Below, one piece after another: positions 92 to 4,921 of a stretch of DNA of 50,590 nucleotides. Both the position numbers and the translations under genes were made by a program. Source of the DNA: Candidatus Yanofskybacteria bacterium RIFCSPLOWO2_01_FULL_42_49 (GTDB lineage Bacteria > Patescibacteriota > Minisyncoccia > 2-02-FULL-40-12 > GWA2-44-9). Location: positions 1-50,590 of the forward strand of contig MGKI01000012.1 of the NCBI GenBank assembly GCA_001795615.1, read 5' to 3'. The notes below the pieces were generated by a model. It did not search any database. It was not told where the DNA came from and was given only the letters and a program-made list of their open reading frames with translations. The stretch's first letter is position 1; the number at the start of each line of letters is the position of its first letter.

Positions 92-621
92 TTTAGGTTT
101 TGCCCAACTCCTTTACTGTGAGGTTCACATGGCGAAGGCAGATCTAAAGCAGGTGGCGTAACCGATGAGTCGGTGGCGCCACTCCTGTTTCGTCAGAGGA
201 GGGTACAGTCCTGTATCCTCCAGAGGCCCGCCTTTGCGAGCTGAAGCCCGCTTCGGCGAGGCAAAAGCCCGCGCATCGTTAAGCGCAGGGCTTACTGGCG
301 ACCACCGCCGCGGGATAAACGAAAACTCCCGCGGTTCCAACCAACCTGTACATGCGCTGAAAAAGAAAGGAGTAGCAAGGGCTTGAAAAATGAAGCGGAG
401 GAACTCCGCTAACACAAATTCCCCAGTTTTTGCTAGTTTTGTCTGATACAAAACTAGCATCTCTTTCCGCGACCCCGCACTTAACAAGGATAAGTTTTGC
501 AGCCGCAAAGAAGTAAAACTTTGAAGTTAGTTCGCAACTCATATTGCGAGATGACTTCTTGGTTGTCCTTCAAAACGACTGCTTTGCAAATTCTTGTTAA
601 GTGACGGGGTTGCAGGAAGGG
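92..621 (+). ncRNA. Candidate structured non-coding RNA, unclassified (multi-hairpin domains)
   Basis: No credible ORF. Nested stems 107-114/366-373, 198-208/211-221, 308-315/327-334, 431-442/448-459, 463-490/592-620. Non-Watson-Crick pairs are G-U when read on the + strand. Confidence 0.5.
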
Positions 622-622
622 A

Positions 623-651
623 TTGACAAATTATAGGCGTAAGCGTATAAT
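623..651 (+). promoter_or_regulatory. Consensus sigma70 promoter
   Basis: TTGACA (623-628), 17-bp spacer, TATAAT (646-651). Confidence 0.85.
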
Positions 652-656
652 ACAAT

Positions 657-1407
657 TCTTAAGTACCTTTTAATCAGTTCGGGCTCTTCACCCTCACACT
701 TAGTTAGCGATTGCCTAACGGCATCGCAGATATTCGCTAACTAAGTGTGAGGGCAAGACGGGCTCGAAATAAGCCAACTAATGCGTGGTATCTAGGCATT
801 CAAGTAAGATATTTACGGCCGTAAAGATAGTAGGAATTTCTCTCTCATTCTAGAAATAGTAGAAATGTCCGTTAAGCGTTGTTGGTTTATTTCGGGCCCC
901 CACCTCAAGTTATTATGAGGGGTCCAAAAAGATGGTTGGAGTCGTGGCAGTTAATACGGCGGGGTTTGGGTGTCGGAACTACTTATAAAACCCCCGCCTG
1001 TTTTTTGCGACTCCAGCCAAAAAGAAGGTCACGCCAGCCACAATTAGAAGGTGGTCAATAGGTCCGGAGGTCCGACGCGCGGAGTGCGTGTTGGGGCGAT
1101 CTCATTAAAACTGGGGACCGAATGGCGTGACCGACATATGGCCGAAACCGCGCGAGACGAAGGGAAACCCCTGGAACCTAAAAATTCCAGATCGTCTGGC
1201 GGTTTCGGCAACGAAATGACTGTGGCGTAGATCCGCCGCCGGCGAGCCGGGGCCCTGTGCTAAAGCATGGGGTGGAGAAGGGGTGAAAGAGACCCGAGAA
1301 TCTGTGCCACAGTCCTCTCACTCGCTCTATGCGAGATGAGTCCGTCGGCATTGGTAACCCGACGGGGAGACAAACTACCAGCTCAGCGCAACCCGCTGGG
1401 CTTTTTT
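657..1407 (+). ncRNA. Candidate large (~750 nt) structured ncRNA, unclassified
   Basis: Lies between a perfect promoter and a terminator. Consecutive closing stems 691-710/734-753, 760-778/881-899, 933-945/1007-1019, 1027-1036/1123-1132, 1141-1151/1199-1209, 1218-1232/1300-1314, plus hairpins 1317-1340 and 1341-1366, with short A-rich linkers. No credible ORF. Confidence 0.7.
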
Positions 1408-1413
1408 GTTTTT
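1380..1413 (+). terminator. Intrinsic terminator
   Basis: agctcagcg-caacc-cgctgggct followed by tttttgttttt. Confidence 0.75.
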
Positions 1414-1478
1414 GCCGTAGTCGTGTGTTCGCTCAAAGCCACCCCCATTTTAATCACGGATTCCTCACAGAACGCTAG

Positions 1479-1689
1479 CAACACCTACCGCAATTTTAAT
1501 CACGGTTCCTCGCCTTCAAAAACTTACTCAAGATAGAGTAGGTTTTATTATCTAAAATCACAGGTGACCCTCTCTTGCCTCCTCACTATCGTTCGGCGTT
1601 CGACCTATGATTTTAGATAAAACCTGCTCCACTCTCATAAGTTTTCTCGGCTCGTCAAGTGATAAAATTGCGGCAGGTATTGCTCGCTT
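1479..1689. repeat. Dispersed ~210-bp hairpin element A, copy 1 (MITE/REP-like or ncRNA)
   Basis: About 90% identical by eye to 6982-7191; ends are inverted repeats and the whole element folds as one long hairpin. Confidence 0.85.
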
Positions 1690-1742
1690 TCGAATAACTT
1701 AAGAGAGACGATCTCCTTGGTGTCTGACAGAGTTTTATCAAA

Positions 1743-1985: not shown

Positions 1986-3812
1986 CTAAGGAGTGATTTT
2001 CCAAACAAATATAGAATTGCCGATGACAGCTATGGGTTTATGGGCGTCGAGCCAGGCGTAACTGGTTTCTGGTTTTTCCCGCGAACCCATGAAAAATGAA
2101 GCTGATACGGCGATGTAGCCGCCGTTGGGGTTTTTTGCCAAGAAGTCGCGAGCGTCCTTATATGTTCCTGCATTTATCCAAACGAGTTTCTCTTTTAAAT
2201 AATAACCTTGATCAGCCCAGCCGAAGTAATCAAAATGAATTTTATCTACATTTCCGCCAGCTGGCGGATTCTTAACCCACATCGCGAGCCGTTTTAAATC
2301 CTGCCCCCAATCCAAATTAGAGTCGACGACATATTGATGTCCGCCCGACGGTCCGCCGGCGAGTTGGTTGAAGTAGGTCAGATAATAGGGATACACTCGG
2401 ATGTTTTCTACGATATACCAACCCAACAAAGCAAAAATTAAAATCGTCCCGATTTTAATTTTTGCTTTGTAATCTCTAATCTCTACAGAGATTCCCGGCT
2501 TCGCACGGGAACCTTTTCCGAGCAATCTCGAATCTCTAATAATCTTTGAAAGTTGCCCCGCTAACATTATAAATACAAATCCATATGTCGGGAGCAAATG
2601 TCTCACCCCGATATTAAGATTGGCTCTTATGCTCAGATACCAATATATTGCTATCCATAATAACATCGAAAACTCAACAAAGTAAGTTTTTACCCACTCT
2701 TTAATTTTTAGAAATTTAAAATTAGAAATTAGAAATTGCGTTTTGGTTGTTAAATATACGAATACAATTATCGTTAACAACCAAAACGCGAGGGGTTCTT
2801 TAATCGCGTACACAACCGGGAAATAATTTTTCCAGGCATAATTCCTCACCTCACCGAGAAAGAAAGTAGTGTTGCCGCCGATGGCTCTCTGGTTAACCAT
2901 AAGAAGTCCGGTGGCATAGTAAGCGAGCGGTCTTATCACCGGTTTATCCGACGCCCAAATGACAGGATCAGCGATAAGGCGATTGCCGTATGACCCTAAA
3001 TTATATGCGCTGTCTGATTTCTGTTTTGCCAGCGGATAATTCATGGTATGGAGAGCGTAAACCGGCCAGACAACCAGAATAATTCCCATAGCCATTAGTA
3101 CAAGGGAGCGGACAAACAAAACCGCGGACGACTTGAAAGAAAAAGAATTAGCAAAGAGCCAAGCAATAACCATCAAAATAAACAGAGGTGCAAGCAATAC
3201 TACGGAAAATTTGGTCAATTGAGCAATTCCAAAAGCAATCGCTGCGAGCCAAAATGTTTTTCGGGATGGCTTTTGTAAATATTTGATAAAAAAGTAGGTG
3301 CCAAGAAGTACCCCGAATAATGCCGGCATATCGGTGGTGACAAACCTTGAATGGGCCAGTACCGTAGGCGAGAACGAGAAAAGAATGGTTGCGATAAGAG
3401 CCGCGGCTTTTCCATATCTTTCATTCGCAAATCTGTAAATCAACACAGCCGATAAAACAAAAAACAGGAGCATTGCTGATTTAGCCGTTCGAGCAAGTAG
3501 GTCAACATTATTTGAGGGATTGTAAATAAGCGTTCGTCCGAAATTCCACTGGCCATTAATATCGCTAAGCCAGTATTGGGTAGAAAAAGCCGATTGATTG
3601 ACTGGTAGTAATGATAGAACCAATCCTGCAAGATCTTTGGCCAAAGGCGGATGTTCGGGATTTAACCGATAGTCGCCTTTGGTGATATATGAATATCCGG
3701 CTCCGACATGTGGGATTTCATCTACAATAAAAGAATCATCCCACAGGCTGGTGATCGACAAAGCCAACGCCACCAAAACGACAAGCACGGCGATGTTAGA
3801 TATCTTTGCCAT
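1986..3812 (-). CDS. GT-C fold glycosyltransferase (family 39 / ArnT / PMT-like), 608 aa
   Basis: N-terminal TM then DE motif (IVDEIPH), NPEHPPL, multiple TM helices, DSNLDWGQDL motif. Confidence 0.85.
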   Translation of the reverse strand: MAKISNIAVLVVLVALALSITSLWDDSFIVDEIPHVGAGYSYITKGDYRLNPEHPPLAKDLAGLVLSLLPVNQSAFSTQYWLSDINGQWNFGRTLIYNPSNNVDLLARTAKSAMLLFFVLSAVLIYRFANERYGKAAALIATILFSFSPTVLAHSRFVTTDMPALFGVLLGTYFFIKYLQKPSRKTFWLAAIAFGIAQLTKFSVVLLAPLFILMVIAWLFANSFSFKSSAVLFVRSLVLMAMGIILVVWPVYALHTMNYPLAKQKSDSAYNLGSYGNRLIADPVIWASDKPVIRPLAYYATGLLMVNQRAIGGNTTFFLGEVRNYAWKNYFPVVYAIKEPLAFWLLTIIVFVYLTTKTQFLISNFKFLKIKEWVKTYFVEFSMLLWIAIYWYLSIRANLNIGVRHLLPTYGFVFIMLAGQLSKIIRDSRLLGKGSRAKPGISVEIRDYKAKIKIGTILIFALLGWYIVENIRVYPYYLTYFNQLAGGPSGGHQYVVDSNLDWGQDLKRLAMWVKNPPAGGNVDKIHFDYFGWADQGYYLKEKLVWINAGTYKDARDFLAKNPNGGYIAVSASFFMGSREKPETSYAWLDAHKPIAVIGNSIFVWKITP

Positions 3813-3814
3813 GA

Positions 3815-4921
3815 CTAAAAAACTTCAAGTAATGCTATTGATACCATAAGCGCAATTAACGCCAAGAACGGTCCGGCATTAAGTCCCATCCAGTGTTTGT
3901 GCTGGTGAGGATAAACCCCCACACTCATACTATGAGTGTGGGGGTAAACCAAATGCTCCCATTTATTTAGTTTCTCCATTACCCACCAGAGGCCTTTAGC
4001 CGATAATAATATTATCGGCGGCAATATTACGCTAAGGCCAAGAACTCCTGCTTGCGCAGATGGGTCTGCTGGTAACAGCACTGGTACAAGCATTACAAAC
4101 AGCCACGAGAAAACAACCGTATGGGCGACGGAAAAATGGCCGTGTTTTCTCTTTAACCAGTGGATGATTTCCTTGATGAAACCTATCGCGAAAAATATGC
4201 TTATCGGCCAGGAAACAAGATTAGAACCGCTAGGCTCTATAAACACGATCTTATCTATCAGCCATCCCAAGTTTCTGTACAATTGCGTGAACGGTTCAGC
4301 GCTTGAGAAAACGGAATTATCCGCGGACAAAATAAAACCGGGATTTTGCCAGACATAAAAACCCACAGGCAGAACGACTGCCATAGCCGTAAGGACCAGC
4401 AACGAAAAACCGCCCAAAATTTGTCCCTTGGTCTCGCTATATTTAGATAAAGAAAAATCTTTTTTGATGTAATCCCAATAGTTCAAAAATAGGAGCAATA
4501 CTGCTAGCGGCGCGACAAGAAAACTCTTGCCGGCGTACAACCCTGCTCCGCCAAACAAACCGGCCATAAAAAAATCAAAAACATGGCCGTATTTTAGCCC
4601 GTGCCATATGAAGTAAAAAGCATATATCAGAGCGAAAGAAGCGAGGGTCTCTTTGGCGCCGGATTTAGACATAAAAATATGCCACGAAGATACGGCAAGC
4701 AGAAAAGAAGATATCATTGCTAAATTCTCGTCAAATAATTCCTTGACCAAAAAATAAAGGCCAATGACGGACAATATTCCCGCTGAAACGGAAAGTATGA
4801 TGGAAGCTTTTTGTTCAAGCGGTAAACCCGGGCCCCAATTTAAGCCGTACAATCTTACAAAAACGGCGACAGCCGTTATCAGCGCCAGGATCCAATAATT
4901 GTTTTTTCCCGATGTGGCCAT
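3815..4921 (-). CDS. ArnT/PMT-like membrane glycosyltransferase-related protein, 368 aa
   Basis: Polytopic; LYFLVKELF...ISSFLLAVSSWHIFMSK pattern of GT39-like proteins; 2 bp from the neighbouring GT gene. Confidence 0.65.
   Translation of the reverse strand: MATSGKNNYWILALITAVAVFVRLYGLNWGPGLPLEQKASIILSVSAGILSVIGLYFLVKELFDENLAMISSFLLAVSSWHIFMSKSGAKETLASFALIYAFYFIWHGLKYGHVFDFFMAGLFGGAGLYAGKSFLVAPLAVLLLFLNYWDYIKKDFSLSKYSETKGQILGGFSLLVLTAMAVVLPVGFYVWQNPGFILSADNSVFSSAEPFTQLYRNLGWLIDKIVFIEPSGSNLVSWPISIFFAIGFIKEIIHWLKRKHGHFSVAHTVVFSWLFVMLVPVLLPADPSAQAGVLGLSVILPPIILLSAKGLWWVMEKLNKWEHLVYPHTHSMSVGVYPHQHKHWMGLNAGPFLALIALMVSIALLEVF

What the first reader, a model, noticed from the sequence alone, without database searches (positions are those of the whole stretch)
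623..1413. Candidate ~750-nt large structured ncRNA with perfect promoter and terminator
Seen: TTGACA-17-TATAAT, then six large domains closed by 10-20-bp stems (691/753 is a perfect 20 bp; 760/899 19 bp; 933/1019 13 bp; 1027/1132 10 bp; 1141/1209 11 bp; 1218/1314 15 bp), several branched internally, joined by short A-rich linkers, then two small hairpins and a U-tailed terminator. Wobbles in these stems are G-U on the + strand, matching the promoter direction. I found no signature of RNase P (GAGGAAAGUCC), tmRNA, SRP, rRNA or group I/II introns. Established: bacterial ncRNAs of this size class are few (GOLLD, ROOL, OLE, HEARO). Inference: an abundant large ncRNA, possibly of an undescribed class, in a reduced CPR-type genome.
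Basis: partly seen in the sequence, partly recalled or inferred. Interest (0 to 1): 0.85.

Follow-up and report, generated by a model that had tools for sequence, protein, structure and literature searches.

The report
New large structured RNA in CPR bacteria
This is a real gene for a roughly 750-base folded RNA that makes no protein, matches no catalogued RNA family, occurs once per genome across one family of ultra-small (CPR) bacteria, and looks like a 100-base hairpin RNA that has grown by adding extra folded modules.

Summary
Window 623-1413 has a 12/12 sigma-70 promoter, an intrinsic terminator and all six reported stems. The fold is far more stable than shuffles (z -11.3 on +, -8.2 on -). 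Rfam 15 gives nothing at gathering score for the window or for 32 related loci.

A covariance model of the 5' domain finds one locus per genome in 44 of 62 genomes of the window's family (16 of 23 genera; probably Ca. Yanofskybacteria). It finds none in 43 genomes of the three sister families. The core stem covaries: 95% paired, 16 of 23 pairs changed on both sides, 0 of 500 shuffles as good. All 29 loci examined have a near-consensus promoter.

Only the 5' leader and the P1/P2 domain (760-899) are family-wide. Domain 1 (691-753) is an inserted copy of a dispersed hairpin repeat. Domains 3-6 are genus-level modules that are swapped or absent in relatives, and total length runs from about 280 to 820 nt. 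A roughly 100-nt version of P2 that ends in a U-run occurs in 5 of 148 genomes of four other families of the class.

Function is unknown. My best guess is a protein-binding scaffold RNA. Expression could not be tested. It is not SRP, 6S, RNase P or tmRNA.

The parts
623..651 (+). Sigma-70-type promoter, TTGACA-17-TATAAT. The transcription start is inferred at about 657-659.
   Evidence: 12/12 match. Homologous loci all have a promoter at the same place: 29 of 29 score at least 9/12, and 9 score 12/12.
657..680 (+). 5' leader, apparently single-stranded and pyrimidine-rich. It reads AAGUACCUUUU here; the family consensus is AGUUCUUUACA.
   Evidence: Invariant or nearly invariant columns in A1 and A4. 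No consistent partner within the RNA.
681..690 (+). P1, 5' strand. It pairs with 916-925 and encloses D1 and P2.
   Evidence: MFE helix 681/925, 10 bp. A P1-like helix appears in the single-sequence folds of most homologues, and its sequence varies. It was not formally tested.
691..753 (+). Domain 1: an inserted copy of a dispersed 63-nt hairpin repeat. It is not part of the conserved RNA.
   Evidence: Other copies lie at G000:C11:9425-9488 and C4:32257-32313 and in G049, G045 and G042. Contigs of relatives in 4 of 4 runs replace 673-759 with 23 nt. G001, G002 and G007 have no insert at this position; G003 has a different short hairpin there.
760..899 (+). P2, the conserved core. A 19-22-bp closing stem has an A-rich 5' strand and a U-rich 3' strand. 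Inside it are hairpin P2a (789-829, loop with AUUCAAGUAAGA) and a variable hairpin P2b (about 836-866).
   Evidence: CM R1 finds it in 44 of 62 family genomes. Covariation: 95.1% paired, 16 of 23 pairs changed on both sides, 0 of 500 shuffles as good.
916..925 (+). P1, 3' strand. It is followed by the A-rich linker CAAAAAGAUGG.
   Evidence: The linker is conserved in A1 and A4.
933..1019 (+). Domain 3, a genus- or species-level module. It contains a terminator-like hairpin (958-998) followed by a U6 run (999-1006).
   Evidence: Stem shown. The closing stem differs but still pairs in G001 and G007 (sequences). It is skipped in contigs of relatives (joint 900>1023). Internal terminator-like site.
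1027..1132 (+). Domain 4, a three-way junction. It is conserved in sequence in genera g1 and g5.
   Evidence: 5 sequences; the stems are invariant and one arm has a variable tip. BLAST identity to G007 is 84% over 128 nt.
1141..1209 (+). Domain 5, a branched hairpin shared with G001.
   Evidence: 3 of 26 predicted pairs differ on both sides and stay paired between the two sequences.
1218..1314 (+). Domain 6. It is shared with G003, where it sits at a different position in the RNA, and with G056.
   Evidence: 5 of 25 predicted pairs are compensatory among 3 sequences. Positions are given.
1317..1365 (+). Two small hairpins (1317-1340 and 1342-1365).
   Evidence: G001 and G003 have equivalent hairpins with different stem sequences (sequences).
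1380..1413 (+). Intrinsic terminator: a 9-bp stem followed by a U-run.
   Evidence: The crude terminator script reported a hairpin plus U-run in 26 of 29 homologous loci; for about 18 of these I judged it a plausible terminal terminator.
1986..3812 (-). Context only: a convergent PMT/PMT_2 (GT39-type) membrane glycosyltransferase gene. It is the conserved downstream neighbour of the RNA gene.
   Evidence: Pfam PF02366 at 6e-15 and PF13231 at 6.2e-13. A homologue lies convergent downstream in 24 of 30 loci.

Best explanation
Window 657-1413 (+) is a stand-alone gene for a structured non-coding RNA of a family not yet catalogued.

Shown: it has its own near-consensus promoter and an intrinsic terminator. 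It is single-copy. Its 5' part (a pyrimidine-rich leader, helix P1 and the P2 rod with an inner hairpin) is conserved with covariation across most genera of one CPR family, probably Ca. Yanofskybacteria. Its 3' two-thirds is a string of G+C-rich modules that differ between genera, change order or are missing. One module (691-753) is a recent insertion of a dispersed hairpin repeat. A roughly 100-nt form consisting of P2 alone, ending directly in a U-run, exists in four other families of the same class.

Inferred: the P2 rod and the leader are the working part. In this family transcription runs on past the rod, and lineage-specific modules have been added behind it. The direction, growth rather than reduction, is not proven.

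Most likely mode of action (about 0.35, inferred only): the RNA acts as RNA, as a stable scaffold or decoy. A protein would bind at the conserved rod, its internal loops and the AUUCAAGUAAGA loop, and the 3' modules would be accessory. This is how RNase P, SRP or tmRNA carry lineage-specific expansions around a fixed core (recalled general knowledge). Base-pairing through the free leader is the second option (about 0.2).
For: Promoter, terminator and fold statistics. One locus per genome in 44 of 62 family genomes at E<=1e-3, covering 16 of 23 genera; second hits are the opposite strand of the same place. Order-level search at E<=0.01: 46 of 105 genomes hit (G000 plus 45 of 61 other family genomes), with 0/8, 0/26 and 0/9 in sister families. 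Covariation of P2 and P2a: 95.1% of cells paired against 87.6% in shuffles, 16 of 23 pairs changed on both sides, 0 of 500 shuffles as good, and slid controls 38.8-62.8% paired; the same picture appears on an independent MAFFT alignment. Compensatory changes in D5 (3 of 26 pairs) and D6 (5 of 25 pairs). Promoter at the same position in 29 of 29 loci. ORFs are not conserved as proteins: tblastn matches are short and switch frame. The 3' part has 55.7% G+C against 42% for the genome. Only the D1 segment has other copies in the genome. The small version was found with R2 and its alignment shows the shared closing stem and P2a. The downstream PMT gene is conserved (24 of 30 loci) while the upstream neighbour changes between an FtsQ-type gene, MurB and DnaJ.
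Against: No transcript evidence: no RNA run was listed, so expression, ends and abundance are untested. The RNA is not universal. 16 of the 61 other family genomes had no hit at E<=0.01. G009 (100% complete, same genus as strong hits) has nothing recognisable at the syntenic DnaJ/PMT site, even with filters off. It is therefore dispensable or replaceable, which weakens a housekeeping reading. No partner protein was identified. The stems of D4 are invariant, so they carry no covariation information. The surrounding 2 kb is full of palindromic repeats, so some of the 'ornate' look in this genome comes from insertions. Some both-sided changes (columns 6-10) reflect a 1-nt register shift between subgroups, not independent events. 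Sequences are related, so shuffle controls overstate significance.
Confidence: 0.8

Rival explanations
1. It is a trans-acting base-pairing regulator. The conserved, apparently unpaired pyrimidine-rich 5' leader (AGUUCUUUACA; AAUUUCUC in the small version) is a seed that pairs with purine-rich sites such as ribosome-binding regions. The rod serves as a stabilising and terminating hairpin.
For: The leader is among the best conserved segments. It has no consistent partner within the RNA; cognate against non-cognate leader-linker duplexes gave -5.97 against -5.47 kcal/mol, permutation p = 0.06. The small version has the classic sRNA layout of promoter, leader of roughly 50-60 nt, hairpin and U-run.
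Against: In G000 no complementary site of 12 nt or more beyond chance was found for the leader or the loop: leader 12-mers 1 hit against 1.3 expected, loop 12-mers 0 against 0.8. Seeds of 6-8 nt cannot be tested this way. The rod is conserved far more tightly than a mere terminator needs (A10). Structured 3' additions of 200-600 nt are not expected for a seed-type sRNA (recalled general knowledge).
Confidence: 0.2
2. It is a self-assembling RNA-only particle, as reported for GOLLD, ROOL and OLE. The modules provide contacts between RNA copies.
For: Large size, many closed domains, no adjacent partner gene on the same strand, and very stable folding. The abstract of PMC12286853 (seen in the listing) says GOLLD, ROOL and OLE form homo-oligomers.
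Against: No sequence or structure match to those families. The modules are not conserved between genera, and contact surfaces would be expected to be conserved. Length ranges from about 280 to 820 nt. Nothing here tests assembly.
Confidence: 0.1
3. It acts in cis or in antisense on the convergent PMT glycosyltransferase gene. The two genes share a terminator region and the RNA tunes PMT expression.
For: The convergent PMT neighbour is kept in 24 of 30 loci while the upstream neighbour changes. In several genomes the RNA terminator lies about 10-30 nt from the PMT stop codon (sequences).
Against: In G000 and G052 several hundred nt separate them. The small version in other families has unrelated neighbours such as obg, M23 peptidase and MurD. 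The conserved part is the 5' end, the part farthest from PMT.
Confidence: 0.07
4. It is a very divergent 6S-like or SRP-like RNA, both being rod-shaped housekeeping RNAs.
For: No 6S or SRP RNA is detected anywhere in G000. The small version is a roughly 100-nt rod.
Against: The Rfam models for 6S, small SRP and large SRP give no hit in the window. In the large form P2 is a three-way junction, not a central bubble. In the small version the apical loop is 16-18 nt, not a tetraloop. The protein partner of an SRP RNA was not found: Ffh M domain in 0 of 62 family genomes, and the SRP54 GTPase domain only as P-loop-level partial hits.
Confidence: 0.05
5. It is not a functional RNA. It is an intergenic dump of palindromic mobile elements (MITE/REP-like) that happens to fold well.
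For: D1 is such an element. Further palindromic repeats lie at 181-232, 471-612 and 1470-1691.
Against: Apart from D1 the stretch is single-copy in the genome. The core is conserved with covariation, a fixed promoter and a fixed orientation in 44 of 62 genomes. Branched domains D4-D6 are conserved with compensatory changes.
Confidence: 0.03

Closest known systems
OLE RNA (Rfam RF01071)
   Same: A stand-alone, highly structured bacterial ncRNA several hundred nt long. It is restricted to one lineage, sits among ordinary chromosomal genes and lies next to a membrane-protein gene. The properties of OLE are recalled, not tested here.
   Different: No match to any Rfam model, including OLE. The phylum is different. 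The neighbours here are an FtsQ-type gene and a convergent PMT glycosyltransferase, not the OLE-associated genes. The 3' two-thirds is not conserved between genera.
ROOL and GOLLD RNAs (Rfam RF03087, RF01998)
   Same: Large, many-domain 'ornate' bacterial RNAs of unknown function. The abstract seen says they form RNA-only oligomers.
   Different: No model match. No hit in viral contigs with the core motif. The gene is single-copy, chromosomal and syntenic. Length varies about three-fold within one family.
RNase P RNA, tmRNA and SRP RNA, as examples of a fixed core with lineage-specific expansions
   Same: A conserved core (leader, P1 and P2) with variable helices and modules added around it. 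Every locus has its own strong promoter.
   Different: RNase P RNA and tmRNA lie elsewhere in this genome, at C11:55438-55856 and C11:124188-124549. SRP RNA and its protein were not found at all. The RNA is missing from some complete genomes.
Classical Rho-independent sRNAs (5' seed plus terminator hairpin)
   Same: The roughly 100-nt version in other families has a promoter, a short pyrimidine-rich leader, one long hairpin and a U-run.
   Different: The hairpin is about 100 nt long and is kept almost unchanged across four families. The window's member reads through it and adds about 500 nt of structure.

Membership tests
Any Rfam 15 family (including GOLLD, ROOL, OLE, HEARO, raiA, 6S, SRP, RNase P, tmRNA, group I/II introns) | Scores at or above the family's gathering threshold with its covariance model | tested here: not met
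   Whole window: only 2 tRNAs, elsewhere. Permissive scan of 1-2100: best match 25.7 bits against a 230-bit cut-off. 7 + 20 related loci: 0 matches. 5 small-version loci: no match at the RNA's position.
RNase P RNA / tmRNA | It is the genome's copy of that RNA | tested here: not met
   RNase P RNA lies at G000:C11:55438-55856 (91.8 bits, E 4e-29). tmRNA lies at C11:124188-124549 (107.2 bits).
SRP RNA (4.5S / large bacterial SRP) | Match to RF00169 or RF01854 | tested here: not met
   No hit in G000 and none in the window.
SRP RNA (4.5S / large bacterial SRP) | Its binding protein Ffh (M domain) is present in the genome | tested here: not met
   PF02978 in 0 of 62 family genomes. PF00448 appears only as partial P-loop-level matches.
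6S RNA | Match to RF00013, and a rod with a large central bubble whose 5' and 3' ends pair | tested here: not met
   RF00013 has no hit in G000. P2 encloses a three-way junction, and the 5' leader is not paired to the 3' end.
HEARO / omega-RNA and other guide RNAs | An adjacent nuclease or transposon gene (IscB, TnpB, Cas), or a repeat array | tested here: not met
   The neighbours are an FtsQ-type POTRA protein, MurB or DnaJ, and PMT. There are no direct or tandem repeats inside the RNA.
Group II intron | Domain V/VI signature and usually an intron-encoded reverse transcriptase | tested here: not met
   No Rfam intron hit. No ORF is conserved inside.
Independent bacterial ncRNA gene (generic) | Own promoter, own terminator, conserved structure with covariation, no conserved reading frame | tested here: met
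Independent bacterial ncRNA gene (generic) | A transcript with the predicted ends is observed | not testable with these tools
   No RNA run was listed for this stretch.

The most novel reading that the evidence does not exclude
Living relatives preserve a size series of one RNA. It runs from a roughly 100-nt rod sRNA in several Paceibacteria-type families to 280-820-nt multi-domain RNAs in Ca. Yanofskybacteria. The large forms would be built by read-through of the rod's terminator and stepwise capture of structured modules, including a mobile hairpin caught in the act at 691-753. The large form would have acquired a new job as the RNA core of a lineage-specific RNP or RNA-only assembly. This phylum appears to lack the SRP system altogether.
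Probability: 0.15. Interest if true: 0.9.

Novelty: categorically new. Interest (0 to 1): 0.72.

Why it matters
Few bacterial ncRNAs longer than about 300 nt are known, and each one (RNase P, tmRNA, OLE, GOLLD, ROOL, HEARO) has proved biologically or structurally instructive. This one comes from CPR bacteria, for which my literature searches found no reports of non-coding RNAs of this kind.

It already has about 45 homologues and a covarying core. Modular variation is unusually visible: the same gene is about 100 nt in some families and over 750 nt here, modules are swapped between species, and a mobile hairpin sits inside it. That makes it a ready case for studying how large RNAs grow. It is also a defined target for cryo-EM and SHAPE and for metatranscriptomics of groundwater communities. 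If a partner protein exists, it would point to a CPR-specific cellular process.

Tried and rejected
- Expression: the look-up of sequencing runs listed 20 runs, all DNA, with no RNA holder. Transcription, ends and abundance are therefore untested.
- Read laying on DNA contigs of 4 runs cannot show transcripts. I used it only to see variant forms in related organisms.
- Antisense targets: no complementary site beyond chance in G000 for the leader or the P2a loop.
- Partner of the leader within the RNA: the best duplex sites lie at inconsistent positions. The cognate against non-cognate leader/linker test gave p = 0.06, which is inconclusive.
- Protein coding: ORFs 879-1061, 1051-1230 and 1267-1536 give only short, frame-switching tblastn matches in relatives.
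- Repeat array: no direct or tandem repeats inside the RNA.
- Phage origin: 0 viral contigs hold the 19-nt core motif.
- Mobile context of the small version: its neighbours are ordinary genes (Obg, cupin, M23 peptidase, Mg-chelatase-like ATPase, endonuclease III-type, pilin, MurD).
- Sequence conservation of 3' modules between genera: none except D4 between g1 and g5.
- An eyeballed likeness between the G009 intergenic region and the 3' ends of g7 RNAs was not supported by blastn.
- The P1 count by script (27 of 30) is unreliable, because the script sometimes counted outer P2 pairs as P1. I use it only qualitatively.
- The terminator-finding script picked internal U-runs in several loci, including G000, so the length range is approximate.
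- Model R3, built from 5 near-identical small versions, refound only those 5 of 151 genomes. The true spread of the small version is unknown.
- Literature: searches, and text look-ups in three papers, found nothing on this RNA or on SRP loss in this phylum. I saw only listings, abstract starts and the passages returned.
Full report
**What is in the window.** Positions 623-651 carry a perfect TTGACA-17-TATAAT promoter on the + strand. A 9-bp G+C-rich hairpin at 1380-1402 is followed by TTTTTTGTTTT. Between them, 657-1413 folds to -323.7 kcal/mol, against -250.0 +/- 6.6 for 20 dinucleotide shuffles (z = -11.3). The reverse complement folds less well (-290.6, z = -8.2). The + strand fold has 24 G-U among 245 pairs. 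No ORF longer than 89 aa lies inside.

**Not a known RNA.** Rfam 15 at gathering thresholds finds only two tRNAs elsewhere in the 50.6-kb window. A permissive scan of 1-2100 returns only plant-miRNA and snoRNA models far below their cut-offs, which are generic hairpin matches. The genome's RNase P RNA and tmRNA lie on another contig. Twenty-seven homologous loci and five loci of the small version also give no Rfam family at the RNA's position. Six literature searches and three text look-ups found nothing about such an RNA.

**Conservation.** The window is contig 12 of an 807-kb, 14-contig genome. BLAST found partial matches in 18 of 62 genomes of the same family. Reading these loci showed a common plan:
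- a strong promoter;
- a leader with AGUUCUUUACA (AAGUACCUUUU in the window's genus);
- a short helix P1;
- a long rod P2, with an A-rich 5' strand and a U-rich 3' strand, enclosing hairpin P2a whose loop reads AUUCAAGUAAGA;
- an A-rich linker;
- a variable number of further domains;
- a terminator.

A covariance model of the 5' domain (R1, built from 15 sequences) finds exactly one locus per genome in 44 of 62 family genomes at E<=1e-3, covering 16 of 23 genera. The extra hits are the opposite strand of the same place. At E<=0.01 it hits 45 of the 61 other family genomes and 0 of 8, 0 of 26 and 0 of 9 genomes of the three sister families of the order. The exact 19-nt core motif occurs in 11 named records. 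Six are titled Ca. Yanofskybacteria, three 'uncultured Ca. Saccharibacteria' and two 'Patescibacteria group'. It occurs in no viral contig.

**Covariation.**
- On 30 model-aligned sequences, 95.1% of cells pair, against 87.6% in shuffles. Sixteen of 23 pairs show changes on both sides, and no shuffle out of 500 reaches any of the five measures. Sliding the 3' partners by 1-3 columns drops pairing to 39-63%.
- An independent MAFFT alignment of 26 P2 domains gives the same picture. There, part of the both-sided count at columns 6-10 comes from a one-base register shift between subgroups.
- The sequences are related, so these controls overstate significance. The signal is nonetheless strong, and the distant genera change A-U runs to G-C pairs coherently.
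- All 29 loci examined have a promoter scoring 9-12 of 12 at the same distance from the leader. Nine score 12/12, and most have a TGn-extended -10.
- The three longest internal ORFs give only short tblastn matches that jump between frames in relatives. Conservation is therefore at the nucleotide and structure level, not the protein level.

**What the six domains are.**
- Domain 1 (691-753) is not part of the conserved RNA. Two more copies lie elsewhere in the genome, and further copies occur in three other genomes, with compensatory stem changes among copies. G001, G002 and G007 have no insert at that position, and G003 has a different short hairpin there. In 4 of 4 metagenome runs, contigs of related organisms replace 673-759 with 23 nt. 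It is a dispersed hairpin repeat inserted between P1 and P2, which explains its perfect 20 bp.
- Domain 2 (760-899) is the family-wide core, P2.
- Domain 4 is nearly identical in sequence in genera g1 and g5, apart from a variable tip (5 sequences).
- Domain 5 is shared with G001, with 3 compensatory pairs.
- Domain 6 is shared with G003, where it sits before domain 4, and with G056, with 5 compensatory pairs among 3 sequences.
- Between genera the 3' parts are otherwise not alignable.
- A crude script puts total length at about 280 to about 820 nt.
- The 3' part is 55.7% G+C in a 42% genome.
- A terminator-like hairpin plus U6 lies inside domain 3 (958-1006).

**A wider, smaller relative.** A second model built on 26 P2 domains (R2) was run on a sample of 151 genomes of the class. 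Outside the family it hit five genomes of four families at E from 8e-10 to 4e-4, plus one doubtful A/U-rich hairpin at 0.007. The five real hits are about 100-nt rods that keep the closing stem and P2a (alignment). Each has its own TTGACA/TATACT-type promoter 50-60 nt upstream and a leader containing AAUUUCUC (GGUUUCUC in one), and four of the five are followed directly by a run of U. They are about 85-90% identical by eye across the four families. They sit among ordinary, unrelated genes and match no Rfam family. A sample of 150 other genomes of the phylum gave no hit. The window's RNA is thus the expanded member of a wider but patchily detected family. Whether large forms grew or small forms shrank is not established.

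**Context.** A convergent PMT/PMT_2 (GT39-type) glycosyltransferase gene lies downstream in 24 of 30 loci; by my reading most of the remaining 6 are cut short or out of range. The upstream neighbour varies: an FtsQ-type POTRA protein in 17 loci (in 3 of them MurB lies between it and the RNA gene), MurB in 8 and DnaJ in 4. The RNA is not universal. With thresholds relaxed to E<=10, complete genomes G018, G009, G020 and G071 have no convincing hit, and G016 has a weak hit that R2 later confirmed. In G009 the syntenic DnaJ/PMT site holds about 300 nt with no likeness to the RNA, even with filters off.

**How it may work.** Nothing here shows function.
- Favoured reading, about 0.35. The evidence fits an RNA that acts as RNA and whose working part is the leader plus the P1/P2 domain. 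A fixed core with lineage-specific additions resembles RNP scaffold RNAs, so I favour a protein-binding scaffold or decoy.
- Second option, about 0.2. The free, conserved, pyrimidine-rich leader makes a base-pairing role possible. No extended target was found in the genome, and no partner for the leader within the RNA was established.
- RNA-only assembly, about 0.1. Coupling to the PMT gene, about 0.07. Neither is excluded.
- An SRP-RNA reading is rejected. RF00169 and RF01854 are silent, and the partner protein was not found. The Ffh M domain occurs in 0 of 62 family genomes and in 0 of 151 genomes of a phylum sample. The SRP54 GTPase domain appears only as P-loop-level fragments. That apparent absence of the SRP system is itself noteworthy and needs independent checking.
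- A 6S reading fails on both the model and the topology.

**Verdict.** This is a genuine, previously uncatalogued structured ncRNA family. The window holds one of its largest members, inflated in part by a mobile hairpin. Confidence that it is a real ncRNA gene of a new family is about 0.8-0.9; confidence in any specific mechanism is low. Transcript evidence is the main gap.

Noticed in passing
whole genome G000, 62 family genomes and phylum samples: The SRP system was not found. The small SRP RNA (RF00169) occurs in 0 of 62 family genomes and 0 of 121 phylum-sample genomes. The large SRP RNA is absent from G000. The Ffh M domain (PF02978) occurs in 0 of 62 family genomes and 0 of 151 phylum-sample genomes. 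The SRP54 GTPase domain (PF00448) appears only as partial P-loop-level hits of 31 bits or less in the family. The controls rang in 12-14 of 14 known genomes. Two literature searches found no report of this.
   Followed up: partly
window 691-753; G000:C11:9425-9488; G000:C4:32257-32313; L023, L027, L037: A dispersed hairpin repeat of about 63 nt. It has a 20-bp stem, an inner small hairpin and a conserved asymmetric loop. Stem changes among copies in four genomes are compensatory, so it is either a small mobile element or a structured module in its own right.
   Followed up: partly
window 459-623: A palindromic element lies between an upstream hairpin and the RNA promoter. Positions 471-612 match G003:C5:14776-14919 (81%) and G065:C40:8984-9124 (76%). 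It appears to have been inserted just upstream of the ancestral promoter region.
   Followed up: no
window 100-470: The non-coding stretch upstream is collinear with the regions upstream of the RNA gene in G001 and G003, and ends in a 12-bp hairpin at 431-459. The sub-hairpin at about 181-232 has extra copies on three other contigs of G001. This could be a second small RNA or more repeats.
   Followed up: no
window 1470-1691: A nested long inverted repeat (arms 1470-1498/1663-1691 enclosing 1526-1565/1603-1642) lies between the RNA terminator and the PMT gene and looks like a MITE. It caused the spurious plant-miRNA Rfam match.
   Followed up: no
L109-L113 (G236, G248, G339, G361, G228): A roughly 100-nt rod-shaped small RNA gene with its own promoter, followed directly by a U-run in four of the five. 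It is nearly identical across four families of the class but was found in only 5 of 148 sampled genomes outside the family. It is homologous to the P2 core of the window's RNA.
   Followed up: partly
G000:C5:39-66 and 989-1185: The only 16S rRNA matches are two fragments at a contig start, with about 900 nt between them. This may be an insertion or intron in the 16S gene. No 23S rRNA is assembled.
   Followed up: no
G000:C11:55438-55856: The RNase P RNA scores 91.8 bits, below Rfam's 100-bit gathering score for RF00010. It is a divergent bacterial type-A RNA.
   Followed up: no
L119 (G009:C3), locus positions 1199-1500: In a 100%-complete genome of a genus whose other members have the RNA, the syntenic DnaJ/PMT intergenic region is about 300 nt and shows no likeness to the RNA. 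This looks like a lineage-specific loss or replacement.
   Followed up: yes
window 1986-4921 (- strand): Two adjacent membrane-protein genes lie on the - strand. 1986-3812 is PMT/PMT_2 by Pfam. 3815-4921 (368 aa) was not scanned but reads as a multi-pass membrane protein.
   Followed up: no
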